Part shown: positions 21,310 through 38,549 of the stretch, one piece after another | How positions within the stretch are numbered: the stretch's first letter is position 1 | Layout of the letters: each line of letters starts with the position of its first letter | Assembly (NCBI GenBank): GCA_031261605.1 | Contig: JAISJI010000068.1 | Span: 2,771-66,770 of the forward strand | Length of the DNA: 64,000 bases | Source: Ignavibacteria bacterium | GTDB lineage: Bacteria > Bacteroidota > Ignavibacteria > Kapaibacteriales > UBA2268 | Direction: 5' to 3' | Program-made: the position numbers and the translations under genes | Notes under the pieces: model-generated | Database searches by the model: none | What the model was told of the DNA's origin: nothing | What the model saw: the letters and a program-made list of their open reading frames with translations, nothing else

Positions 21310-21342
21310 ATCAAATAATTATTGCCTCCTCGGCAAAAATAA

Positions 21343-21381
21343 AAGAGCGGAATATACAACATATATCCCGCTCTTTTTTTA
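21343..21381. terminator. Bidirectional rho-independent terminator between the porin-like gene and fabF.
   Basis: Perfect 8-bp stem aagagcgg / ccgctctt, flanked by A-run and T-run. Confidence 0.65.
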
Positions 21382-21398
21382 TTTATTCAGTTCTATTT

Positions 21399-22658
21399 CT
21401 ATATTTCAATTTTCTTAAAACAAACCGTTGCATTGTGTCCGCCAAAGCCAAATGTATTGCTCAATGCAGCACTGATTTCACGTTCTTTCGGCTTGTTTGG
21501 CGTATAGTCCAAATCGCATTCTGGGTCAGGTGTTTCATAGTTAATTGTCGGTGGAACAATGCTGTGCTCCATCGCAAGTATTGTCGCAATCGCTTCTATT
21601 GCTCCTGCTGCTCCGAGCAAATGTCCGGTCATAGATTTTGTAGAACTGATAGACAACTTCTTGGCATAATCGCCAAAAGTCCCTTTGATAGCAATGGTTT
21701 CGTTCTTATCATTGAAGTAAGTTGATGTGCCGTGTGCATTAATGTAATCTATATCGGTCGGAAGTATTTTCGCATCCTCAATAGCAAGTTTCATTGAACG
21801 AACTGCACCTTCTCCACCATCCGCCGGCTGCGTAATATGAAAAGCATCATCGGTAAGACCAAAGCCAGCAATCTCGCAATATATCTTAGCACCGCGATTT
21901 TGTGCGTGCTCCAATGTCTCAAATATCAATATTCCTGCTCCTTCGCCTATCACAAAGCCATCTCTATCCTTGTCAAATGGACGACTTGCGTGCTCTGGGT
22001 CATCGTTACGTGTAGATAACGCCTTCATTGCATTGAAACCTCCTACTCCCATAGGCGATACAACCGATTCCGAACCACCAACCAGCATCACATCTGCATC
22101 GCCACGCTGCATAATCATAAGAGCATCTGCTATTGCGTGTGATGACGTCGCACAAGCCGATACTGTGCCATAGTTCGGTCCTTTCAATCCCCAACGAATA
22201 GCAATCTGTCCCGGAGTAATATCTGATATCAACATCGGTATAAAGAACGGCGAGATACTACTCGGATTTCCACCTGATTTTATTACTACTTCCTGCTGAT
22301 TATAATATGTCCACATTCCACCAATACCACTACCTATAACGCATCCAATACGCTCTCTGTTCTCTTTTTCGAAATCTATCCCAGAATCCTGAACAGCCAA
22401 TGTCGCCGCTGCCATTGCAAGACGAGTAAAATTATCCATTCGCTGGATTTCTTTGCGATTAAGAAACTGAAGCAAGTCCAAACCCTTTACTTCGCAAGCA
22501 AACTTGGTCTTGAAGTTAGTTGTATCAAAACCTGTAATCATAGCAGCACCACTCTTTCCGGCAAGCAATGCTTGCCAAAATTCATTCTTATTGTTGCCGA
22601 TGGCAGTAACCGGACCAAGCCCCGTTACGACTATTTTTGGGTAATTATATTTTGACAT
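21399..22658 (-). CDS. fabF: 3-oxoacyl-ACP synthase II.
   Basis: MSKYNYPKIVVTGLGPVTAIGNN... ~419 aa. KAS II active-site region ...ACATSSHAI... and HGTSTYFNDK. Lies downstream of acpP. Confidence 0.9.
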   Translation of the reverse strand: MSKYNYPKIVVTGLGPVTAIGNNKNEFWQALLAGKSGAAMITGFDTTNFKTKFACEVKGLDLLQFLNRKEIQRMDNFTRLAMAAATLAVQDSGIDFEKENRERIGCVIGSGIGGMWTYYNQQEVVIKSGGNPSSISPFFIPMLISDITPGQIAIRWGLKGPNYGTVSACATSSHAIADALMIMQRGDADVMLVGGSESVVSPMGVGGFNAMKALSTRNDDPEHASRPFDKDRDGFVIGEGAGILIFETLEHAQNRGAKIYCEIAGFGLTDDAFHITQPADGGEGAVRSMKLAIEDAKILPTDIDYINAHGTSTYFNDKNETIAIKGTFGDYAKKLSISSTKSMTGHLLGAAGAIEAIATILAMEHSIVPPTINYETPDPECDLDYTPNKPKEREISAALSNTFGFGGHNATVCFKKIEI

Positions 22659-22754: not shown

Positions 22755-22997
22755 TTAGCCCAATTTCTTCTCTAAGTATTCAATGACATTGCCGACAGTT
22801 TGAACTTTCTCTTGGTCTGCTTCGTCAATAGAGATATTGAACTCTTTTTCTATTTCAAGCATTACTTCCACAGTATCGAGCGAATCTGCGCCGAGGTCTT
22901 TTGTGAAAGAAGCTTCAGGAGTAACTTGCGATTCTTCTACTCCGAGTTTGTTTACAACGATTTTGATAACGTGTTGTGTGATTTCTTTGGTATCCAT
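22755..22997 (-). CDS. acpP: Acyl carrier protein.
   Basis: 80 aa. DLGADSLDTVEVMLEIEKEF contains the phosphopantetheine-attachment Ser. Confidence 0.95.
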   Translation of the reverse strand: MDTKEITQHVIKIVVNKLGVEESQVTPEASFTKDLGADSLDTVEVMLEIEKEFNISIDEADQEKVQTVGNVIEYLEKKLG

Positions 22998-23030
22998 TTA
23001 ATTTACCTTTTGATTTATGTATGTGAAAAA

Positions 23031-23100
23031 TATATATTTATTTATGTTTATGTTTTTGGTTTTGTTATAATTGACGTTACTTCTTACCATTAAATGTAAT
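23031..23100. repeat. Copy 1 of a ~60-bp direct repeat, located just upstream of the acpP start.
   Basis: aaaaatatatatttatttatgtttatgtttttggttttgtta...cttcttaccattaaatg. Near-identical to 24340-24400 apart from small indels. Confidence 0.6.
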
Positions 23101-23473
23101 CTAAACCCAGCAACTCCAATTCGGTAATAACCGATATGTATATATGTTTGTTATTAAGAAAATCTGCAATAAATTGATTTCCATTTAGTAAATGTATCAG
23201 CGGGTTTGTATCACACAATATTCTAATTCCATTCATTCCTTATATTCTTTTGATACTGAAGTGGTTCTTCGTTCCAATTTATTTTTCCCGCAAATTTTTG
23301 CGAATTGAACTGCTTTTGCGATTCCATATTGGATAGAAGTTTATTTAGTTCTATTTTATTTGTTTCTTTGTTTATTGCAATAAGCATACTATTTCTCCAT
23401 ATAAAAAAAATTACACGATAACTATACTGTGTTTACATCAATCCTTCTTTGATGAAAATCTCCAATATTTTCC

Positions 23474-24322
23474 TCAACATAACGCTGCGATATATCCACT
23501 ATATTCATGCTTTGAATTCTCTTTATTAATTGAATCATTTATCATCTCAAAATACTCCGGCAATATCTCTATCCCTATAGTGTTGCGGTGCATTCTATTA
23601 GCAACTATATTGGTCGTCCCTGAACCCGCAAATGGGTCAAGCACCAAGTCACCTTCTTTCGTAAATAACTTAATAAACCACTCCGGTAAATCCTCTGGAA
23701 ATGCTGCACTATGATTTTTATTATTGCATTCCGTGGCTAAGTGTAATACATTAGTGGGATATGCTTTTTTTCTATCTATCCAATTGGAAATATTTTTGCC
23801 AAATCCACTACCATTCTTGGAATTATCTCGTATCTTATCTGTATCACTCAAATTCCTAAGACGGGACTTCGCCCAATCGCCCATTTCTACCATCACTTCA
23901 TCCTGATACATATTAAAATGCTTGTCTTTATTGAATTGCAACAATCGCTCCCAAGCATCCCTAAATCTATTGGGCCACTTACCCGGAAAGCAATTCTTCT
24001 TATGCCAAATAAATTCCTCTGTCCAAAACCAGCCCTGCTTACGCATCTCAAGAATTAGTTCCATTACATAAGTGCTACGTTCACCTTCAACAACCTTTTC
24101 CTTAATATTCAAAATAAAAGTCCCTGTCGGCTTTAATATCCGCAACAATTCCTTCGAAATCGGAAGAAACCATTCCACATATTTATTCGGCGAAATTCCG
24201 CCATAAGTAGATTTCCGCTGGTCCGCATACGGCGGCGACGTAATAACTAAATCCACATAATTATCCGGCATCTTACTCATCGTTTGCAGACAATCTTCAT
24301 TATATATTTCGCAAAACTCCAT
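23474..24322 (-). CDS. Beta-class DNA amino-methyltransferase (N6-adenine or N4-cytosine). Appears solitary or orphan.
   Basis: Motif IV DLVITSPPY lies N-terminal to motif I DLVLDPFAGSGTT, which is the beta-class order. 282 aa. Confidence 0.85.
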   Translation of the reverse strand: MEFCEIYNEDCLQTMSKMPDNYVDLVITSPPYADQRKSTYGGISPNKYVEWFLPISKELLRILKPTGTFILNIKEKVVEGERSTYVMELILEMRKQGWFWTEEFIWHKKNCFPGKWPNRFRDAWERLLQFNKDKHFNMYQDEVMVEMGDWAKSRLRNLSDTDKIRDNSKNGSGFGKNISNWIDRKKAYPTNVLHLATECNNKNHSAAFPEDLPEWFIKLFTKEGDLVLDPFAGSGTTNIVANRMHRNTIGIEILPEYFEMINDSINKENSKHEYSGYIAALC

Positions 24323-24339
24323 AAACTCTTTCCAACACC

Positions 24340-24400
24340 TTCAAAAAAAATATATATTTATGTTTGTTTTTGTTTTTGTTACTTCTTCCATTCAATATGC
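24340..24400. repeat. Copy 2 of the ~60-bp direct repeat. It overlaps the 3' end of the 112-aa ORF and sits ~20 nt upstream of the methyltransferase start.
   Basis: aaaaaatatatatttatgtttgtttttgtttttgtta cttcttccattcaatatg. Aligns to 23031-23100. Confidence 0.6.
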
Positions 24401-24717
24401 CCATTCATATTGTATTTTTCAAATACCTTTAGAACTTCAGCACTAAAGGTTGTTAATTCTTTATCGCCTAATTTTTTAGATAACTCATACAGATGTATGA
24501 ACATTTTCTTTCCGGATTCTGTTTGCTTGTAAACCTTTTTCTCAAATAAAGTTTTCACCAAAAAATAATCTATAAAATTATCCTGACGAAGCAATATCTG
24601 CATATCAAAAAGCATCTCCCTTTCCAGTAAATCCCTATCCGATGGACTTTCGCTGTTAATTTCTTTAGCGATATAGTCCAATTCTTCTTGCTGTTCTTTT
24701 TTACTTAATTTAATCAT
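24379..24717 (-). CDS. Hypothetical 112-aa protein, translationally coupled to the upstream 367-aa ORF.
   Basis: ATGA overlap with the 367-aa ORF at 24714-24717. Charged, probably helical. No motif recognised. Confidence 0.5.
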   Translation of the reverse strand: MIKLSKKEQQEELDYIAKEINSESPSDRDLLEREMLFDMQILLRQDNFIDYFLVKTLFEKKVYKQTESGKKMFIHLYELSKKLGDKELTTFSAEVLKVFEKYNMNGHIEWKK

Positions 24718-25817
24718 ATCTGCAATGGTATTTGTATTCTTTCTCTTTTGTGTTGAATGTCTGATTCTAAGTGTTGCAATATCCTTGAGCCAAGCGAAGT
24801 AAATATCACCCTATCGTAAAATCCACTTGTTTTTACTTTTTCGGTAAGCTCTAATTCTTCACAATGATTACAAGAAAATCTAAGAACATCAGCAACAGTT
24901 CCTTCGGTGTAATCCATTTTGAAAAAACTATTTACAAAATCAAATTCTGATTTTTTTTGAAATGCCCGCCCACGAGGAAGCCATTCCCCATCTGTTAATG
25001 CAATGAATTTCAGAAAATAATAAATATTGATTTTGCATTTCTTTTCGTAAAAATTACCATTTAATAATGACTCCAGCAATATCCTCTTCTGCTCTACGCT
25101 TAGATTTATCCGCTTCAATTTATCTGTAATTTCCACTGCATTAATATTGTCTCTGAAGCGAACGCCAAAATCCGTAAGTTGTATCGTATTACGAACTTTA
25201 TTTAGCAAATCAAAATCCTCTGCAACTCTAACAGCGACATTAAATCTTGTTTTTGTTACTCCATCGCTAAAATTAAAAGCATCGCCAAAATCCTTAATCG
25301 CTAATCTGTCAGCATTATTCTCATAGAATGGGACAAACAACCTATTCAAACCACCGAGATGCGTAAAATTCAATGATATTGGTGGAGATAGTGGAACTCC
25401 GTTATTAATCAATGCCTTTTGTATTTCAGTATCATATAGCAACCTAATTTTATCTAAATCATAATCAAACCAAAGCAAATCATTTGCATCACAGAAAGTT
25501 ACAATTTCATTAGTATAATAAACCGGTGTTTGCTTGGCGAATAAAATCCCCACTTTGTGTTGAAAACCTTTCGCCAAAATAATATTTGTATATTGATTAC
25601 TTTGCTGCAAACAATAGGACAATTTTGCTTTACTATCTATTATAGTTTCAAGTTCTGTAATCAGAAAGCCATCATTCTTTATTTTATGAGCAAAATCAAT
25701 TCTACCATAAGCGGTTGTAAATTGCTGGCATACTTTATTCGCTAAAGGTAGAGAAATGCACTCTTGTAAATAATTCCTTTCTCTTAATAGAGTCCATTCC
25801 ACAAGGTATTCATTCAT
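24714..25817 (-). CDS. Hypothetical 367-aa protein. Candidate restriction endonuclease or defence nuclease with weak PD-(D/E)xK-like spacing. Function unknown.
   Basis: A GGAGG RBS precedes the ATG. N-terminal GRIDFAH...ITELETIIDSK could be a D...E..DxK nuclease motif. One CxxC (CNHCEE). Sits in a methyltransferase neighbourhood. Confidence 0.5.
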   Translation of the reverse strand: MNEYLVEWTLLRERNYLQECISLPLANKVCQQFTTAYGRIDFAHKIKNDGFLITELETIIDSKAKLSYCLQQSNQYTNIILAKGFQHKVGILFAKQTPVYYTNEIVTFCDANDLLWFDYDLDKIRLLYDTEIQKALINNGVPLSPPISLNFTHLGGLNRLFVPFYENNADRLAIKDFGDAFNFSDGVTKTRFNVAVRVAEDFDLLNKVRNTIQLTDFGVRFRDNINAVEITDKLKRINLSVEQKRILLESLLNGNFYEKKCKINIYYFLKFIALTDGEWLPRGRAFQKKSEFDFVNSFFKMDYTEGTVADVLRFSCNHCEELELTEKVKTSGFYDRVIFTSLGSRILQHLESDIQHKRERIQIPLQI

Positions 25818-25829
25818 TACAGACCTCCA

Positions 25830-25943
25830 TTAAATCCCCACATTATACGGTGGCGACGTTACAATCAAATCAATGAACGGCGCATCAAATAAATCGCTAT
25901 TCAACGAACTATCATTTAGCAACTCTATACCTTTAAACTCCAT
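25830..25943 (-). pseudogene. N-terminal remnant of a second beta-class methyltransferase gene: 38 codons, truncated right after the SPPY motif.
   Basis: MEFKGIELLNDSSLNSDLFDAPFIDLIVTSPPYNVGI* is homologous to the N-terminus of the intact methyltransferase (MEFCEIYNEDCLQTMSKMPDNYVDLVITSPPY). It starts 8 nt after the fabG stop and is followed 1 nt after its stop by the RBS of the 367-aa ORF. Confidence 0.65.
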
Positions 25944-25951
25944 AAAACCAC

Positions 25952-26698
25952 CTACATCACCATCCCGCCATCTATATGAACCACCTGTCCCGTCAAATAA
26001 CTCGCATCTTCCGAACAAAAGAAACTAACCACATTCGCTATATCTTCCGCCTCTGCTGCCCGCTTAAGTGGTATCCCTTTCAAAAATTCCTGCTTCACTT
26101 CATCGCTCAATACATCCGTCATCGGTGTCCGAACAAAACCCGGCGCTACATAATTGCAAAGTATATTCCGACTACCAAGTTCCTTCGCTACCGACTTCGT
26201 AAAGCCGATTAATCCTGCTTTTGATGCCGAATAATTGGCTTGACCTGCGTTCCCCATAACTCCTACAACCGAACCCATATTCACAATGCGACCATAACGT
26301 TGAGACATCATATAGCGACTCACAACCTTCGTGCAAAGGAACACTCCCTTGAGATTAGTCGACAGCACAGCATCCCAATCGCTCTCATTCATCCGCATAA
26401 GCAAGTTATCACGGGTAATTCCAGCATTGTTGATTAAGAAATCAATACGCTGACTCTCGGCTATTATCGCATCCATAACGCTTTGCACCTGCTCGAAATT
26501 GGTAACATCGAGTTGCTTAACTATCGCATTCTTAGCCAATTCGGCATCTGTGATAAACACCTCTTCTGCATTTGGAATAGCATAATCAAGAGCATATACT
26601 TTCGCTCCTTCTTTGAGAAGACGTTCCACAATCGCTTTGCCGATACCACGACATCCGCCGGTTACTACGGCTATTTTATTTTCAAATCTATTACACAT
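25952..26698 (-). CDS. fabG: 3-oxoacyl-ACP reductase.
   Basis: SDR. IAVVTGGCRGIGKAI, NAG, YSASKAGLIGFTKSVAKE, and a C-terminal GQVVHIDGGM typical of FabG. Confidence 0.9.
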   Translation of the reverse strand: MCNRFENKIAVVTGGCRGIGKAIVERLLKEGAKVYALDYAIPNAEEVFITDAELAKNAIVKQLDVTNFEQVQSVMDAIIAESQRIDFLINNAGITRDNLLMRMNESDWDAVLSTNLKGVFLCTKVVSRYMMSQRYGRIVNMGSVVGVMGNAGQANYSASKAGLIGFTKSVAKELGSRNILCNYVAPGFVRTPMTDVLSDEVKQEFLKGIPLKRAAEAEDIANVVSFFCSEDASYLTGQVVHIDGGMVM

Positions 26699-26781
26699 AT
26701 CTTGAAATAATTAGAATAAACAAAAATACACCAGCAACCGGACATTACCCAAATGAATAATGCCCGACTGCCAATGTCCAA

Positions 26782-27487: not shown

Positions 27488-29140
27488 CTACTCCCCAAAA
27501 CTATACACCGCCATATTCTCCAAATACTTGTCATCCACAACACGCACCGCTACATTATGAACACCACCTTCCGCAAAGTTATGAACCCGAACACCATTCT
27601 TGTCATACAAAACACTCGGATTAAATTTACCAACCTCCTGTGGAAACTTGTGTGCCGGTATCGGATAATTAAAATCCCAACTATAATTGATTATCACACT
27701 ATCACTCACCGCTCGAAATTCATACTTCCCATCCAACGTCTTGCTACAATCTATGCGAACTACTGGACGTTTCGCTACATCCACTATCTCGCTCACCAAC
27801 ACACGCTCTATCAATATACCATCCTCATTCTTTAACCGAGCCATCTCCTGAACCGCCTCCTTTGCAAAATCAAATGCTATGAAATAACCAACCGGTAAGC
27901 CATTCTCCTGCTTCTCCTTAAACTTCCGACCAGCGTGACATACCGAAAAAAACTTCTGTATCTCCACTCGCCCTATCTTATTCTTCCAACTCTTCACCTG
28001 TATCGGCACATCATCCTTCATCCCATCACTACCGTGGTCACCACGCTGCTTCTCATTCGGAGTGCCACCAAACTTACCTACTATCCACGTCTCAAACTCA
28101 AATGGGTCCATCGCTCGTAAGTCCTCCTCGGCGAAGTAGTGCTTCTCAATCTCGTAATTTGTAAATATTCCATTCGCTTGCAAACGCTTGTCTGTCACAT
28201 CTAACGCTGCGATGGACTGGTCTATTCCGATAAAATTCCGCTGCAAATTATTCGCCATCAACATTGTCGTCCCACCACCCATAAATGGGTCAAGCACCAC
28301 ATCTCCTTCGTTAGAGGATGCTTTGATAATCCGCTCAAGAAGTGCCAGCGGCTTCTGTGTAGGGTAACCAATCTTTTCTATAGATGTTCCTTGAACATTT
28401 TGTATATCAATCCAGTCGTTCCCGATTAATTGCCCCTTTGTCTCACTTAAATATCTTTTTATACGCAATCGTTGATGTTGAGATTTTGGAAAATATATTT
28501 TATTGTCCGCATCCCATTTTTGCATTGTTTCAAACGGACAACGCCAGCCATTTGCATTTGGCAAATACCCTTTATACTCATAGTTATATCCGCCCGGTCT
28601 TGTGTTTGTTAAATCTCCCAACGAATATTTTCCTTTACCATCCATATCATCATACTTGTAAAAATTACATGAATATTTTTCAGTAAGTTCAGAGTATATC
28701 GGATTAAAAGAAAAATTATTTGACTTAGAATAATACCAAATTGTATCTGTTAATACTGCCAATTTTTTCTTTGCATCATTGTGTGCATTGGTTCTTTTCC
28801 AAATTATATGCCCTCTAAAATTTTCATACCCAAATTCCTTATCCAAAATCATCACCCTAATATATGCATCGGCATGCCAGTCGCAATGCAAATATATAGA
28901 GCCGGTGGGCTTGAGCAAGCGATGCATTTCTTTCACTCGGTCGTAAAGCCAGTTGATATATTGGTCTATGCCACCACTCCATCTGTCCTCAAAGGAGCGT
29001 ATTTCGCCGGCATCTCCCCAAATAATTTCGTAATTACGATTAGAGAAGAATGGCGGGTCAAGGTAAATGAGAGCAATGCTTTCTGCGGGCATTTTCTTCA
29101 TTACTTCGAGGCAGTCGCCGAGTATTATTTTATTTTGCAT
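27488..29140 (-). CDS. Beta-class DNA amino-methyltransferase fused to an Mrr-cat (PD-(D/E)xK) restriction-endonuclease-like domain, with a C-terminal PKD-like beta-sandwich tail.
   Basis: Motif IV IALIYLDPPF, motif I DVVLDPFMGGGTT. Then FEFETWIVGKFGG...RGDHGSDGMKDDVPIQVKSWKNKIGRVEIQKF, which fits the Mrr-cat signature F..l....G....gDgGiDg....Q.K. The tail carries YSWDF ... GVHNVAVRVVDD. Confidence 0.75.
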   Translation of the reverse strand: MQNKIILGDCLEVMKKMPAESIALIYLDPPFFSNRNYEIIWGDAGEIRSFEDRWSGGIDQYINWLYDRVKEMHRLLKPTGSIYLHCDWHADAYIRVMILDKEFGYENFRGHIIWKRTNAHNDAKKKLAVLTDTIWYYSKSNNFSFNPIYSELTEKYSCNFYKYDDMDGKGKYSLGDLTNTRPGGYNYEYKGYLPNANGWRCPFETMQKWDADNKIYFPKSQHQRLRIKRYLSETKGQLIGNDWIDIQNVQGTSIEKIGYPTQKPLALLERIIKASSNEGDVVLDPFMGGGTTMLMANNLQRNFIGIDQSIAALDVTDKRLQANGIFTNYEIEKHYFAEEDLRAMDPFEFETWIVGKFGGTPNEKQRGDHGSDGMKDDVPIQVKSWKNKIGRVEIQKFFSVCHAGRKFKEKQENGLPVGYFIAFDFAKEAVQEMARLKNEDGILIERVLVSEIVDVAKRPVVRIDCSKTLDGKYEFRAVSDSVIINYSWDFNYPIPAHKFPQEVGKFNPSVLYDKNGVRVHNFAEGGVHNVAVRVVDDKYLENMAVYSFGE

Positions 29141-35116: not shown

Positions 35117-36433
35117 ATGCCAGAAGAGAACTTCACCAACACACTATACACCAACGACAACCTCTTCGTCCTAAATGGCTTAAATAGCGATTTGGTTGAT
35201 TTGATATACTTAGACCCACCATTCAATACCAAACGACTATTTTCTGCACCAATAGGTAGTAAAGCAGCCGGCTCGAGTTTCAAGGATATGTGGAATTGGC
35301 AAGATGTGAACGAAGCGTATCTTGATACTTTGGCAGAAAATTATCCGGCATTGACTGATTTCATTGCATCTACGAGTGTGGTGCATAGCAAAGCGATGGC
35401 TGCGTATCTAACATATATGGTGCAACGAATCGTCGAAATGCATCGCGTGCTAAAGGATACGGGCAGTTTATATTTGCATTGCGACCCGACTGCAAGCCAT
35501 TATTTGAAGGTGCTGTTGGATGAGGTTTTTGGTAAAAATAATTTTAGAAATGAAATTGTGTGGTGCTATAAAGAACGCGAAATATCCAAAAAATATTTTA
35601 ATAGAAAACACGATATTATTTTCTTTTACGTTAAATCAGAAAAATATTTATTTAACCCTACGAGATTGTTAGAACCATATAGCAAGGGGACGATTAAGAA
35701 ATTCAATTATACCGATGATGATGGACGCAGTTTTCAAATACGCGGCAAAGGCGGTGAATACACTGGAAAGCAAGGTCTCGATATAAAGTTAGAGCAAACA
35801 AGTCCAGATTTGGTGTATAGAGATTATTTGGATAAAAGTGGAGGAATATTGCCGCGTGATTGGTGGGAGATTCCATTCCTTAACAGAGCAGCCAAAGAAC
35901 GCACCGGCTACCCAACACAAAAACCGCTTGCTCTGTTGCAACGCATCATTAAGGCATCATCAAATGAAGGCGATATAGTTATGGACCCATTTTGTGGTTG
36001 TGCAACGGCTTGTGTTGCGGCTCAGCAACTCGGGAGGAAGTGGATTGGTATTGATGTAGAGGAGAATGCGGTTGATATTTTGATTGAGCGATTGAGTGAC
36101 GATGCTGGGATGTTCAAGGATTTTGTAGCGACAAAATTAATTCCCAAACGCACGGATTTAACTCTCGAACCACCATCGCAATCGGTAAAAGAACGCTTGT
36201 ACAAAGAACAAAATGGATGTTGCAACGGCTGTGGAAATGAATATTTAATGAAAGATATGGAAATAGACCACATCATTCCGAAAGCAAAAGGTGGTGGCGA
36301 TTACTACGAAAATTACCAGTTGTTATGTGGTAATTGCAATAGAATTAAGGGAAAAAATACAATGGAATTTTTGCGAATAAAGATACAAACGCGCAAGAAT
36401 TTACTGAAGGAAAAGATTATTTTCGGGGAATAA
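35117..36433 (+). CDS. Beta-class DNA amino-methyltransferase fused to a C-terminal HNH endonuclease domain. The AdoMet motif I is degenerate.
   Basis: Motif IV LIYLDPPF. Motif I region DIVMDPFCGCATA instead of FxGxGTT. C-terminal CCNGCGNEYLMKDMEIDHIIPKAKGGGDYYENYQLLCGNCNRIKG is an HNH motif (C..C...H...N...C..C). The core shares ~60% identity with the 27488..29140 methyltransferase (GYPTQKPLALLxRIIKASSNEGD). Confidence 0.8.
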   Translation: MPEENFTNTLYTNDNLFVLNGLNSDLVDLIYLDPPFNTKRLFSAPIGSKAAGSSFKDMWNWQDVNEAYLDTLAENYPALTDFIASTSVVHSKAMAAYLTYMVQRIVEMHRVLKDTGSLYLHCDPTASHYLKVLLDEVFGKNNFRNEIVWCYKEREISKKYFNRKHDIIFFYVKSEKYLFNPTRLLEPYSKGTIKKFNYTDDDGRSFQIRGKGGEYTGKQGLDIKLEQTSPDLVYRDYLDKSGGILPRDWWEIPFLNRAAKERTGYPTQKPLALLQRIIKASSNEGDIVMDPFCGCATACVAAQQLGRKWIGIDVEENAVDILIERLSDDAGMFKDFVATKLIPKRTDLTLEPPSQSVKERLYKEQNGCCNGCGNEYLMKDMEIDHIIPKAKGGGDYYENYQLLCGNCNRIKGKNTMEFLRIKIQTRKNLLKEKIIFGE

Positions 36434-36492: not shown

Positions 36493-37308
36493 ATGGAAAA
36501 CCAAGAATTATCCACAAACCAAAACACAAAAGATACTTCTGAAACCAAAAAGAAATATCCTAAAAAAGAGTACGCTAAGAAGCCAAAAAGAGAGCCGATA
36601 GATTACTCTAATCTTCCACCTAATACTATTTACAATGCACTTGTAGAATCCAATATAGAGTTTAGTCGTAAGGACTTACGCAAAATCTCTAACGCCGTCC
36701 ACGAGAAGTTTGTCAAGCGATACGGCGAGGATAAAGAGCCAGAAAAAGTGCAACAAAAAGAAAATGAAACCACTTACAATGTTTTCGTTTATCCAAACGA
36801 AATGCGCAGAGAAATCAAGAACATAGTCCAATGGTTCTTCCAAGTTAAGGATAAGCGGTCAGAGAAGCATATCCGATTACTCGCTCTTGAAAAATTGCAG
36901 AAATTGAAAAAACTTAACTCACCCGAATATGAAATGCTGCTCGTTAAGTTCAATATCGCCGAGGACGAAAGACGCAAACGCGAAAAAGCAGAACAACTAC
37001 TCCTAAAAGAGAAGGCAGCAAAGAAACTGCAACGACAACAACAGCAAACTACTAAAAAGCCGTTCAATAAAAATAACTATAAGAGCCCAAACTTTAAACC
37101 AAAATACAATAAAGATATCAAAGATAATAAGAAACCATACGTGAAACGCGAAAATGGTGATAAGAAAGTTGATGGTGATAAATCGACGCCGGCTTTTGTT
37201 GGAAGACGCTATAATGCTGATGCTCAAAAAGAAACTACTACTAATGATGAAGAAGTTAATATATTCAAAACTAAACCCACAAATTCTGAAACCATAGACA
37301 ACGAATAG
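36493..37308 (+). CDS. Hypothetical Lys/Glu-rich (highly charged) protein.
   Basis: 271 aa, about 40% K/E/R/D. An AAGGAG RBS precedes the start. No motif recognised. Confidence 0.5.
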   Translation: MENQELSTNQNTKDTSETKKKYPKKEYAKKPKREPIDYSNLPPNTIYNALVESNIEFSRKDLRKISNAVHEKFVKRYGEDKEPEKVQQKENETTYNVFVYPNEMRREIKNIVQWFFQVKDKRSEKHIRLLALEKLQKLKKLNSPEYEMLLVKFNIAEDERRKREKAEQLLLKEKAAKKLQRQQQQTTKKPFNKNNYKSPNFKPKYNKDIKDNKKPYVKRENGDKKVDGDKSTPAFVGRRYNADAQKETTTNDEEVNIFKTKPTNSETIDNE

Positions 37309-38549
37309 TGAACGCAAAAATAATACAAATAGCAAAATATATGGCAGCCGTTGCATCCTGCATCCTTATTGTCGGATGCAATGACCTGCCGACAGAAGTG
37401 GGAACAGCATTCCTACAAGACACCATAGGAATATCTATTGTAGCAGGTCAGGAGAACCGCATTATGCCTAATGCTTACTCTTACGCTGTTACACCTGCTG
37501 CAGAGCGAAACACCGGAAATATACTTATCGGAATCAATGGCAATACAAGAGCTGCTGCACTGATTCGCTTCAATGTTCCGATTGGTATGGCGGATATTGC
37601 AGATAGAATTGAAAATTGCCAACTGCATCTTATTCCAAATACTTACGCTATTGGTGATACGATAAGCAACCAACTCAACTTCAATATTATGGAAGTTACA
37701 AGCCATTGGACGCAAGAGACAACTACCCCAGAGGATGTGCTATCGTCCGATTTGCTGTATGCTGGTGGAATGGAAATCGCAAAATTTAGTGGCACTATCA
37801 ATAGAACGGACTCGCTTACAGATACGCTGATAATGGACTTCCCAAAGGATTTGCTCGCTCAATGGTTACACAATATTAACGATGGCACGAACATAACGGA
37901 TACCGTTTGGGGAATTGCTATTATTCCGCAAGCCGGCTCTAATATCATAAATGCCTTTAAGTCCTACTCAAGTGCTGCGGCTACACCCGGGACGTTTATT
38001 AAAATTAGATATTGGGATACAGCCCATACTACATTGGATTCATTCAATATGCTATCGGCAGAGGAGACGACTTTCGCTGCTACTACAGATGAGTATAACA
38101 CTGAGGATATTGTATTGCAAGGTGCAACTCGCACCCATAGCCGTTTTAACTTCAATCTATCAGAAGTGCCACAATTCGCAAGCGTTAATCTTGCTGAACT
38201 CACTCTTACATTAGATGAAGCAAATACCGTTCTCGGTAATAAGCCAGTGCCAGAGCAAATATATATGCATTACTTTGATGATACTACTTCCGGCGAAAAA
38301 CTTACGCATAGCCAAGCCGTTATCGTCGGTAACTACGATAGCACAAGCAAGACATATACGTTCCGTAGTTTCTTGAATTATCCACTGAATAAATTCGTTC
38401 GACAACAGAAGGGTATCGGAACATTAGTGCTTACTTTCGGCTCATTAGAATACGAATACAACCAACTAAATAAACTCGCTTTCTATGGATTAAACGCTAC
38501 GGACATCGCTAAACGACCTAAGTTCCGCATCGTATATTCCGCAGAATAA
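37308..38549 (+). CDS. Hypothetical lipoprotein.
   Basis: GTG start overlapping the upstream stop (taGtg). Lipobox ...CILIVGC. Confidence 0.5.
   Translation: MNAKIIQIAKYMAAVASCILIVGCNDLPTEVGTAFLQDTIGISIVAGQENRIMPNAYSYAVTPAAERNTGNILIGINGNTRAAALIRFNVPIGMADIADRIENCQLHLIPNTYAIGDTISNQLNFNIMEVTSHWTQETTTPEDVLSSDLLYAGGMEIAKFSGTINRTDSLTDTLIMDFPKDLLAQWLHNINDGTNITDTVWGIAIIPQAGSNIINAFKSYSSAAATPGTFIKIRYWDTAHTTLDSFNMLSAEETTFAATTDEYNTEDIVLQGATRTHSRFNFNLSEVPQFASVNLAELTLTLDEANTVLGNKPVPEQIYMHYFDDTTSGEKLTHSQAVIVGNYDSTSKTYTFRSFLNYPLNKFVRQQKGIGTLVLTFGSLEYEYNQLNKLAFYGLNATDIAKRPKFRIVYSAE

What the first reader, a model, noticed from the sequence alone, without database searches (positions are those of the whole stretch)
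22998..25951. A ~2.9 kb DNA-modification islet inserted inside the conserved fabG-acpP-fabF cluster
fabG, acpP and fabF are normally adjacent. Here fabG (25952-26698) and acpP (22755-22997) are separated by four minus-strand elements: a 38-codon methyltransferase N-terminal remnant, a 367-aa unknown ORF, a translationally coupled 112-aa unknown ORF, and an intact 282-aa beta-class amino-methyltransferase. The remnant starts 8 nt after the fabG stop. The 367-aa ORF's RBS starts 1 nt after the remnant's stop. This packing suggests the cargo is transcribed from the fab promoter region. A core-metabolism operon hosting a restriction-modification-like or defence-like cassette is unusual. It implies either a recombination hotspot or selection for high constitutive expression.
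Basis: partly seen in the sequence, partly recalled or inferred. Interest (0 to 1): 0.75.

Follow-up and report, generated by a model that had tools for sequence, protein, structure and literature searches.

The report
Decayed restriction-modification scrapyard inside fab operon
A 2.9 kb insert between fabG and acpP of an Ignavibacteria/Kapaibacterium-like genome is a patchwork of broken restriction-modification and toxin genes; only a lone DNA methyltransferase and a lone nuclease are intact, which is a known kind of event, though the nuclease family behaves oddly.

Summary
The coordinates, spacings and ORFs are as described. fabG and acpP are adjacent in 9 of the 11 nearest fabG loci, so this is an insertion. 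A second assembly of the same run gives the same arrangement.

It is not one cassette. It is a mosaic of at least three Type II restriction-modification (RM) modules and one toxin-antitoxin module, all on the fab strand:
- The 37-aa remnant is the N-terminus of the methyltransferase (MTase) of an M->HNH system.
- The 112-aa "unknown" ORF is the 5'-truncated, catalytically dead HNH nuclease of that same system.
- The 367-aa ORF lies between these two remnants. It has a NucS-like PD-(D/E)xK domain followed by winged helices.
- The 282-aa MTase is an M.PvuII-like N4-cytosine-type enzyme. Its usual partner is an EcoO109I-family nuclease, of which only a 38-aa stump remains.
- A 54-aa ORF and the first 45 residues of a PIN toxin follow.
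- A 53-70 nt direct repeat brackets the MTase-to-PIN block, as in "insertion with long target duplication".

Only an orphan MTase and a solitary nuclease are intact.

Homologues of the 367-aa protein lie inside three unrelated RM operon types. They stay intact while the upstream MTase erodes in a nested deletion series. I cannot explain this.

Overall: a new member of a known kind, of moderate interest.

The parts
25952..26698 (-). fabG (left flank, intact)
   Evidence: It scores 323 bits against TIGR01830, above the 297.75 cut-off. It is 76-79% identical to fabG of Ca. Kapaibacterium MAGs.
25830..25943 (-). A 37-aa N-terminal remnant of the MTase (here called M_C) of an M->HNH Type II RM operon. 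It starts 8 nt after the fabG stop.
   Evidence: It is 63% identical over 38 aa to residues 18-55 of the 270-aa PF01555 MTase that precedes an HNH nuclease in L144 (E 1e-11). FIDLIVTSPPYNVGI matches 15 of 15. It matches PADLOC MTase_II at 6e-6.
24714..25817 (-). A 367-aa intact nuclease (here called R367). It has an N-terminal NucS/EndoMS-like PD-(D/E)xK domain followed by winged-helix domains. GGAGG lies 6 nt upstream of its ATG.
24379..24717 (-). A 112-aa ORF that is a 5'-truncated, catalytically dead remnant of the 194-aa HNH restriction endonuclease of the same M_C->HNH operon. Clear homology covers aa 59-112 (nt 24382-24543). Its new start sits in an ATGA overlap with the R367 stop.
   Evidence: Its homologues are 194-aa PF01844/PF14279 proteins. 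The alignment shows a conserved C-terminal tail, but the H-N-H positions and the Cys positions are replaced and there is a 10-aa insertion. tblastn with the L144 HNH protein gives 47% over 92 aa at 4e-22. It has no Pfam HNH hit.
24344..24396 (.). Direct repeat, copy 1. It covers the last 18 nt of the HNH remnant plus its trailer, just upstream of the 282-aa MTase.
   Evidence: The local alignment with copy 2 scores 58. 500 shuffles gave a mean of 22, sd 3.7 and a maximum of 38. The 33-nt core is 91% identical and occurs only at these two places in the window, with 0 expected by chance.
23474..24322 (-). A 282-aa intact beta-class MTase (here called M282), probably N4-cytosine-specific. It is now an orphan.
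   Evidence: It matches PF01555 at 3e-47. Its motifs are TSPPY and DPFAGSGTT. The best solved relative is M.PvuII, an N4-cytosine MTase, at 8.9e-34. It has more than 8000 homologues, and the best 120 are 75-84% identical. Its homologues P0125 and P0136 are each followed by an overlapping PF14511 RE_EcoO109I gene. It is 82% identical over 260 aa to the L145 copy, and the last ~17 aa diverge.
23422..23538 (-). A 38-aa N-terminal stump of the EcoO109I-family restriction endonuclease that normally follows M282. About 225 of 252 codons are deleted.
   Evidence: tblastn with the 252-aa L145 nuclease (PF14511 at 4e-93) gives 52% over 29 aa at 7e-6. The match is in the expected overlapping position at the MTase 3' end.
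23223..23387 (-). A 54-aa ORF, possibly the antitoxin of the PIN module. This is tentative.
   Evidence: It overlaps the PIN stump by 14 nt in toxin-antitoxin-like arrangement. It has no family hit and no plasmid match. The assignment is an inference from position only.
23090..23236 (-). A 48-aa N-terminal stump of a ~123-aa PIN-domain (VapC-like) toxin.
   Evidence: It has 166 hits at E<=1e-3, and nearly all align to residues 1-45 of the hit. Six 123-127-aa hits carry PF01850 PIN at 1e-13 to 3e-17. Its own Pfam PIN hit is only E 0.08.
23026..23095 (.). Direct repeat, copy 2. It lies right after the PIN stump and 28 nt upstream of the acpP ATG.
   Evidence: Together with copy 1 it brackets a 1.25 kb block made of M282, the nuclease stump, the 54-aa ORF and the PIN stump.
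22755..22997 (-). acpP (right flank, intact)
   Evidence: It matches PF00550 at 9e-14. It is 70-74% identical to acpP in L003-L005.
21341..22658 (-). fabF (21399-22658) and the first strong terminator-like hairpin on this strand (21341-21377).
   Evidence: fabF matches Pfam ketoacyl-synt. The hairpin has a 17-bp stem and a T-run. No terminator-like site lies on the minus strand between fabG and the end of fabF.

Best explanation
The 2.93 kb between fabG and acpP is a scar left by selfish DNA. It is a mosaic of fragments from at least three Type II restriction-modification (RM) gene pairs and one PIN toxin-antitoxin pair, all in the fab orientation.

The most economical history is inferred from the anatomy; none of its steps was observed:
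1. A promoter-less M_C->HNH operon landed 8 nt after the fabG stop.
2. A block carrying an N4-cytosine-type MTase, its EcoO109I-family nuclease and a VapBC-like pair inserted just behind HNH. In doing so it duplicated 53-70 nt of the target.
3. The 367-aa nuclease gene (R367) came to occupy the interior of the M_C->HNH operon. Only 37 codons of M_C and the inactive C-terminal part of HNH remain.
4. Deletions removed most of the EcoO109I-like nuclease and of the PIN toxin.

Every recognisable killer gene (HNH, the EcoO109I-like nuclease, PIN) is now dead. Two genes are intact:
- an orphan MTase, which presumably still methylates the chromosome at one short motif;
- R367, a solitary NucS-like nuclease with winged-helix DNA-binding domains, whose family persists without an adjacent MTase.

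The insert is probably transcribed by read-through from fabG into acpP-fabF. Whether the mosaic was built at this site or arrived partly pre-assembled is not resolved.
For: Insertion:
- fabG, acpP and fabF are contiguous in L003-L009, L011 and L013.
- The insert has 33% G+C, against 43-44% for the flanking genes.
- Two assemblies give the same arrangement.

M_C and HNH remnants:
- The 37-aa remnant matches the N-terminus of the L144 MTase. The C-terminal half of the 112-aa ORF matches the C-terminus of the L144 HNH protein.
- M_C->HNH is the standard arrangement, with a 4-nt overlap in L146 and a 3-nt gap in L144.

The MTase block:
- M282 homologues are followed by RE_EcoO109I genes in L145 and L147-L150.
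- A stump of that nuclease is found in the window.
- The PIN stump is confirmed.
- The direct repeat is significant and unique in the window. Furuta et al. 2010 (PMC2853133) describe RM insertions with target duplications longer than 30 bp and low-GC inserts.

Read-through:
- No terminator-like site lies between fabG and the end of fabF.
- In L146 the M_C cassette starts 3 nt after the moaC stop.

R367 as a nuclease that outlives its MTase neighbour:
- Its fold and invariant residues fit a nuclease.
- Of 56 assessable loci, 7 have a complete upstream MTase, 28 have a 3'-truncated one abutting the gene, and 21 have none detected.
- L116 and L125 are orthologous loci, and L125 has a clean 585-bp deletion inside the MTase gene.
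- dN/dS is 0.08-0.10 for the comparisons that could be estimated.
Against: - No relative shows an intermediate state, such as fabG|M_C-HNH|acpP. The order of events, and whether they happened at this site, are therefore inferred.
- The repeat is AT-rich and has indels.
- The N-terminal 58 aa of the 112-aa ORF have no convincing origin.
- Expression and methylation were not measured.
- R367 activity is untested. Its third catalytic position is Glu rather than Lys in most family members.
- The tally of MTase status among R367 loci is biased, because the loci were found by searching for R367. It also includes some near-duplicate loci.
Confidence: 0.8

Rival explanations
1. The insert is a working hybrid Type II RM system. 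R367 would cut unmethylated DNA at the site that the 282-aa MTase protects, and the pair would be kept in the fab operon for strong constitutive expression.
For: Both genes are full length, co-directional and 391 nt apart. All invariant residues of the R367 family are present in the window copy. The MTase motifs are intact.
Against: - The two genes come from different systems.
- The MTase's partner elsewhere is an EcoO109I-family nuclease, and a stump of it survives here.
- Upstream MTases of R367 homologues belong to other PF01555 subfamilies. They share only about 25-50% identity with M282 over partial stretches.
- None of about 60 R367 loci has a close M282-like neighbour.
- Most R367 homologues have no intact MTase nearby.
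Confidence: 0.1
2. The mosaic was assembled in another genome and arrived between fabG and acpP in one step. On this reading the fab locus is not a hotspot.
For: No intermediate state was seen in any relative. The inner direct repeat duplicates cassette sequence (the HNH 3' end), not fab sequence, so that insertion could have happened elsewhere. The closest R367 homologue, a close HNH-system homologue and this contig come from sample accessions close in number, possibly one project.
Against: No copy of the mosaic, or of any of its junctions, was found elsewhere. The R367 protein occurs on this contig only. None of the other R367 loci holds the HNH remnant or a close M282 homologue.
Confidence: 0.3
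3. R367 is a modification-dependent endonuclease of the DpnI type (a PD-(D/E)xK domain plus winged helix). It would replace RM cassettes whose methylation it attacks, which would explain why the neighbouring MTase is usually destroyed.
For: - It is tolerated without an MTase in most loci and is under purifying selection.
- From my own knowledge: the DpnI and DpnII cassettes of S. pneumoniae replace each other at one locus (Lacks et al. 1986).
Against: Seven loci keep an apparently intact MTase next to R367, with intact SPPY and FxGxG motifs in the two aligned beta-type ones, L099 and L116. In the window an active-looking MTase lies 391 nt away. No sensor pocket was analysed.
Confidence: 0.2
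4. The arrangement is an assembly or binning chimera.
For: The source is a metagenome-assembled genome. The G+C content drops within the insert.
Against: A second assembler gives an identical 20.4 kb contig spanning both junctions. The junctions fall inside recognisable gene remnants in a coherent orientation. The flanks on both sides are most similar to the same Kapaibacterium MAG loci.
Confidence: 0.03

Closest known systems
RM gene complexes acting as mobile elements: insertion with long target duplication, and substitution at a locus (Furuta, Abe & Kobayashi 2010, PMC2853133; earlier work by Nobusato et al. 2000, from my own knowledge)
   Same: A small, low-GC RM unit sits between conserved genes without any integrase or transposase. 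A direct repeat longer than 30 bp flanks the RM genes and overlaps the 3' end of the neighbouring gene. Several different RM systems appear at one place.
   Different: Here the duplicated target is itself part of an older RM cassette. Most genes are remnants. No empty-site genome is available for the inner insertion.
Orphan MTases and solitary restriction endonucleases left by RM decay (Ershova et al. 2012, PMC3488263)
   Same: The 282-aa MTase lost its nuclease partner, which is the expected order of decay. R367 is a solitary nuclease gene next to MTase debris.
   Different: In the R367 family the upstream MTase is the gene that erodes, in a nested series abutting the R367 start. R367 itself stays intact and constrained. 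This is the reverse of the order expected for a classical pair.
M.PvuII-type beta-class N4-cytosine MTases paired with EcoO109I-family Type IIP nucleases
   Same: M282 matches PF01555 and has a TSPPY motif IV. Its best solved relative is M.PvuII. Its close homologues are followed by PF14511 genes.
   Different: Here the nuclease is cut down to 38 codons. The methylated base and the recognition motif were not determined.
NucS/EndoMS nuclease domain combined with a FokI- or DpnI-like layout (nuclease plus winged-helix recognition domains)
   Same: The fold matches. The D...E-x-(K/E)...Q-x3-Y motif is conserved.
   Different: - The domain order is nuclease first, then winged helices.
- There is no NucS N-terminal domain.
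- Most members have Glu where Lys is expected. BamHI also has Glu at this position (from my own knowledge).
- No solved protein matches by sequence.
- No biochemical data exist.
DpnI/DpnII alternative restriction cassettes of Streptococcus pneumoniae (from my own knowledge, not tested here)
   Same: A nuclease of PD-(D/E)xK plus winged-helix type, with a small downstream ORF, occupies the place of an RM pair.
   Different: Here the breakpoints lie inside the displaced M and R genes, not in shared flanks. Modification dependence of R367 is not shown.

Membership tests
Functional Type II restriction-modification system | An intact MTase with catalytic motif IV and AdoMet motif I | tested here: met
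   M282 matches PF01555 at 3e-47, has TSPPY and DPFAGSGTT, and is 82% identical to full-length homologues.
Functional Type II restriction-modification system | The cognate nuclease of that MTase is intact and linked | tested here: not met
   The EcoO109I-family partner is reduced to a 38-aa stump.
Functional Type II restriction-modification system | The intact nuclease (R367) has an intact MTase of the kind found next to its homologues | tested here: not met
   The MTase upstream of R367 is a 37-aa remnant, and it belongs to the HNH system. The MTases next to R367 homologues are of other subfamilies.
Functional Type II restriction-modification system | The nuclease and the MTase share the same recognition sequence | not testable with these tools
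   This needs methylome data and cleavage assays.
Beta-class N4-cytosine DNA MTase (M.PvuII-like) | Motif order IV -> TRD -> I, an SPP(Y/F) motif IV, and similarity to solved N4C enzymes | tested here: met
   (1boo at 8.9e-34; 8s9m/8s9n N4C MTases at about 1e-18). The base actually modified was not measured.
PD-(D/E)xK nuclease, NucS/RecB-like (R367) | The nuclease fold | tested here: met
PD-(D/E)xK nuclease, NucS/RecB-like (R367) | The catalytic triad D...(D/E)-x-K plus Q-x3-Y | tested here: inconclusive
   D41, E55, Q72 and Y76 are invariant. Position 57 is Glu in most members and Lys only in the distant P0118-P0120. A relocated Lys or a BamHI-like E-x-E site is possible.
HNH endonuclease (112-aa ORF) | The H-N-H catalytic residues and Cys zinc ligands | tested here: not met
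   Alignment A2 shows these positions replaced (ELHVDH -> EINSES, QHNF -> QDNF) and the N-terminal Cys pair deleted. There is no Pfam HNH hit.
PIN-domain (VapC) toxin (48-aa ORF) | A complete PIN domain of about 120 aa with its acidic residues | tested here: not met
   Only the first 45 of about 123 residues are present.
[quoted passage not shown] | A direct repeat longer than 30 bp, unique in the genome, flanking RM genes, with no mobility gene | tested here: met
   The repeat is 53-70 nt long. Its 33-nt core occurs only twice in the 64 kb window. No integrase or transposase is seen in the insert. Uniqueness was checked in the window only.
[quoted passage not shown] | A related genome carries a single copy of the repeat at the empty site | not tested
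   No relative carrying the older M_C-HNH cassette at this locus was found.

The most novel reading that the evidence does not exclude
The R367 family is a previously unrecognised kind of nuclease gene. It lives inside Type II RM operons, between the M and R genes, in at least three unrelated RM families. It outlasts them: the host operon's MTase and nuclease erode around it while it remains under purifying selection. It could be a DpnI-like modification-dependent enzyme, or a nickase, that spreads by displacing RM cassettes. That would make it in effect a parasite or a successor of RM systems.
Probability: 0.2. Interest if true: 0.7.

Novelty: new member of a known kind. Interest (0 to 1): 0.4.

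Why it matters
For this genome, the fab operon carries about 2.9 kb of mostly dead selfish DNA. One orphan MTase probably still marks the chromosome, and one nuclease has an unknown target. Neither is evidence of a special link between lipid synthesis and DNA modification.

More generally, the locus records several layers of RM turnover: insertion, target duplication, replacement and decay.

The R367 family gives a concrete, testable case for two open questions. How can a restriction-like nuclease persist without its MTase? Do some nucleases colonise RM operons?

Tried and rejected
- **Fusion idea for the 112-aa ORF.** I tested whether its N-terminal half derives from the small ORF that follows R367 homologues in L064, L139 and L071. 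An HMM of those ORFs scores the window sequence below shuffled controls. Rejected.
- **Remnant as a duplicate of the intact MTase.** The 37-aa remnant is not a duplicate of the 5' end of M282. The two share only family-level similarity, 40% over 35 aa, against 63% to the L144 MTase.
- **Family searches for R367.** Pfam, NCBIfam, PADLOC and a sequence search of solved structures found nothing.
- **R367 on mobile elements.** The plasmid collection and IMG/VR gave no match.
- **RM pairs without R367.** Searches with the RE_MjaI-like protein in plasmids and in viral contigs found nothing. I therefore could not show M-MjaI pairs that lack R367.
- **PIN stump and 54-aa ORF.** Neither has a plasmid match.
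- **Promoters.** The sigma-70 scan found no more sites than shuffled sequence (24 against 22.7), so it says nothing about promoters.
- **AlphaFold database fold search.** The library was unavailable.
- **Literature.** No paper links RM insertion to fabG/acpP.
Full report
**Source and observation.**
The window comes from an Ignavibacteria/Kapaibacterium-like MAG. The 367-aa protein is recorded at NCBI as a hypothetical protein of an 'Ignavibacteria bacterium'. The nearest fabG loci are Ca. Kapaibacterium MAGs at 76-79% identity.

- fabG at 25952-26698;
- a 37-codon MTase-like ORF at 25830-25943, which starts 8 nt after the fabG stop;
- a GGAGG sequence 2 nt after that ORF's stop;
- the 367-aa ORF at 24714-25817;
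- the 112-aa ORF at 24379-24717, starting in an ATGA overlap;
- a 282-aa PF01555 MTase at 23474-24322;
- acpP at 22755-22997 and fabF at 21399-22658.

**It is an insertion, and it is not an assembly artefact.**
- fabG, acpP and fabF are contiguous in 9 of the 11 nearest loci (L003-L009, L011, L013), with fabG-acpP gaps of roughly 25-150 nt. By their record titles these loci range from Kapaibacterium MAGs to Chlorobiota, Sumerlaeota, Bacteroidetes and a gammaproteobacterium.
- The insert has 33% G+C, against 44% for fabG and 43% for fabF.
- A Logan assembly of run SRR14710919 is 100% identical over window 14714-35082.

**The parts.**
- **The 37-aa remnant and the 112-aa ORF.** The remnant is not related to the intact MTase beyond family level. 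It matches the N-terminus of the 270-aa MTase that precedes a 194-aa HNH restriction endonuclease in L144. Identity is 63% over 38 aa, and FIDLIVTSPPYNVGI is identical. The 112-aa ORF is homologous to that same HNH family. Its last 54 residues align well. The H-N-H and Cys positions are replaced, and the N-terminal DNA-binding part is missing (tblastn 4e-22). M->HNH is the standard arrangement in two independent loci, with a 4-nt overlap in L146 and a 3-nt gap in L144. The 367-aa gene therefore sits inside a gutted M->HNH operon.
- **The 282-aa MTase.** It belongs to a very large and highly conserved family: more than 8000 homologues, the best 120 of them 75-84% identical. Its best solved relative is the N4-cytosine MTase M.PvuII. 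In L145 and L147-L150 its homologues are followed by an overlapping PF14511 RE_EcoO109I gene.
- **The nuclease stump.** In the window only the first ~30 residues of that nuclease survive, in the 38-aa ORF at 23422-23538.
- **The PIN stump.** The 48-aa ORF at 23090-23236 is the first 45 residues of a ~123-aa PIN toxin.
- **The 54-aa ORF.** It lies just upstream of the PIN stump and may be the antitoxin. This rests on position only.

**Insertion signature.**
A direct repeat occupies 24344-24396 and 23026-23095.
- The local alignment scores 58, against 22 +/- 3.7 for shuffled sequence, with a maximum of 38.
- The 33-nt core occurs only at these two sites in the window.
- The repeat brackets the block from the MTase to the PIN stump. 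It begins in the last 18 nt of the HNH remnant.

This matches 'insertion with long target duplication' as described for RM systems, with repeats longer than 30 bp and low-GC inserts (PMC2853133). I did not find a genome with the corresponding empty site.

**Expression (inferred, not measured).**
- The first ORF starts 8 nt after the fabG stop. In L146 the same kind of cassette starts 3 nt after the moaC stop.
- No terminator-like hairpin lies on the minus strand until after fabF, at 21341-21377. A strong one lies between rpsP and fabG.
- Read-through from fabG into acpP-fabF is the simplest reading.
- The sigma-70 scan was uninformative.

**The 367-aa protein (R367).**
- It has no family hit and no solved relative by sequence.
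- About 120 full-length homologues share invariant G38, D41, E55, L56, Q72 and Y76. A distant branch hits NucS_C.
- It is therefore a nuclease with a multi-winged-helix DNA-binding part. Its third catalytic position is Glu rather than Lys in most members, so activity is likely but not proven.

**Family pattern, the most interesting by-product.**
In 56 assessable loci, the PF01555 MTase immediately upstream of the R367 homologue falls into three classes:
- complete in 7 loci;
- 3'-truncated and abutting the R367 start in 28 loci, with at least 12 different end points;
- not detected in 21 loci.

L116 and L125 are orthologous loci, 87-88% identical over 10 kb. L125 differs by a clean 585-bp deletion inside the MTase gene, and the nuclease gene is untouched. 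Its dN/dS there is 0.09, against 0.04 for a flanking gene. Between the MTase-less loci L064, L139 and L143, dN/dS is 0.08-0.10.

The downstream neighbour differs by clade:
- In one clade it is an RE_MjaI-family gene. It is full length in only one locus (L092); elsewhere only its N- or C-terminal part remains.
- In another clade it is a 504-aa PD-ExK-like protein. It is intact in L076 and L077. In Capnocytophaga it has lost its 5' end, and the alpha-like MTase upstream is cut to 113 aa.
- In the window it is the HNH remnant.

R367 homologues thus sit between M and R of three unrelated RM types and outlast both. A classical restriction enzyme without its MTase should be lethal. Either R367 is not classical (modification-dependent, a nickase, or dependent on a partner), or unlinked MTases protect the host.

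Two caveats apply. The loci were found through R367, so the tally is biased. Some loci are near-duplicates. I could not run the reciprocal census.

**Verdict.**

The insert is a scrapyard rather than a cassette. Nothing supports selection for high expression. The same 64 kb holds two further MTase-nuclease fusion genes between housekeeping genes, so the fab locus is not evidently special.

The event is a new example of known RM mobility and decay. The R367 family is uncharacterised and behaves unusually.

Noticed in passing
window 27488-29140 (-): A 550-aa fusion of a DPPF-type PF01555 MTase with a C-terminal Mrr_cat restriction-nuclease domain. It is wedged between rpsP and murC.
   Followed up: partly
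window 35117-36433 (+): A 438-aa fusion of a PF01555 MTase with a C-terminal HNH nuclease domain. Its MTase part is 33.5% identical to that of the 550-aa protein. The two ORFs that follow it (36493-37308 and 37308-38549) have no Pfam hit.
   Followed up: partly
window 26729-26776 (-): A strong hairpin of up to 20 pairs followed by a T-run lies between rpsP and fabG. It ends only ~20 nt before the fabG start. It is unclear where the fabG promoter would be.
   Followed up: no
L116 5379-5963 versus L125: These are orthologous loci at 87-88% nucleotide identity. They differ by a clean 585-bp deletion inside the MTase gene upstream of the R367 homologue. The last ~34 nt of the MTase gene and the nuclease gene are intact.
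   Followed up: yes
L076/L077 (all intact) versus L068 (Capnocytophaga): L076 and L077 carry a four-gene array: an alpha-like MTase, the R367 homologue, a 67-aa ORF, and a 504-aa PD-ExK-like protein with no Pfam hit. In oral Capnocytophaga contigs the MTase is cut to 113 aa and the 504-aa protein has lost its N-terminal part, while the nuclease is intact and is recorded on 115 contigs.
   Followed up: partly
L087 4374-5462; L105 5992-7143: R367 homologues with no MTase lie between co-directional housekeeping genes. In L087 these are menaquinone radical-SAM genes. In L105 they are a DJ-1/PfpI gene and an AIR-synthase-related (purL-like) gene. This resembles the fab placement in the window.
   Followed up: partly
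about 20 loci, for example L101 7089-7397 and L116 7089-7364: A conserved ~90-100-aa ORF (...YDRFTFD..LFRKLL..GYD.EEAKDIIL.NCSLSALV.QERI.N.YY...) directly follows the R367 homologue. It is the N-terminal part of the RE_MjaI-like protein found alone. Its dN/dS is 0.25 between L116 and L125, so it may still be functional.
   Followed up: partly
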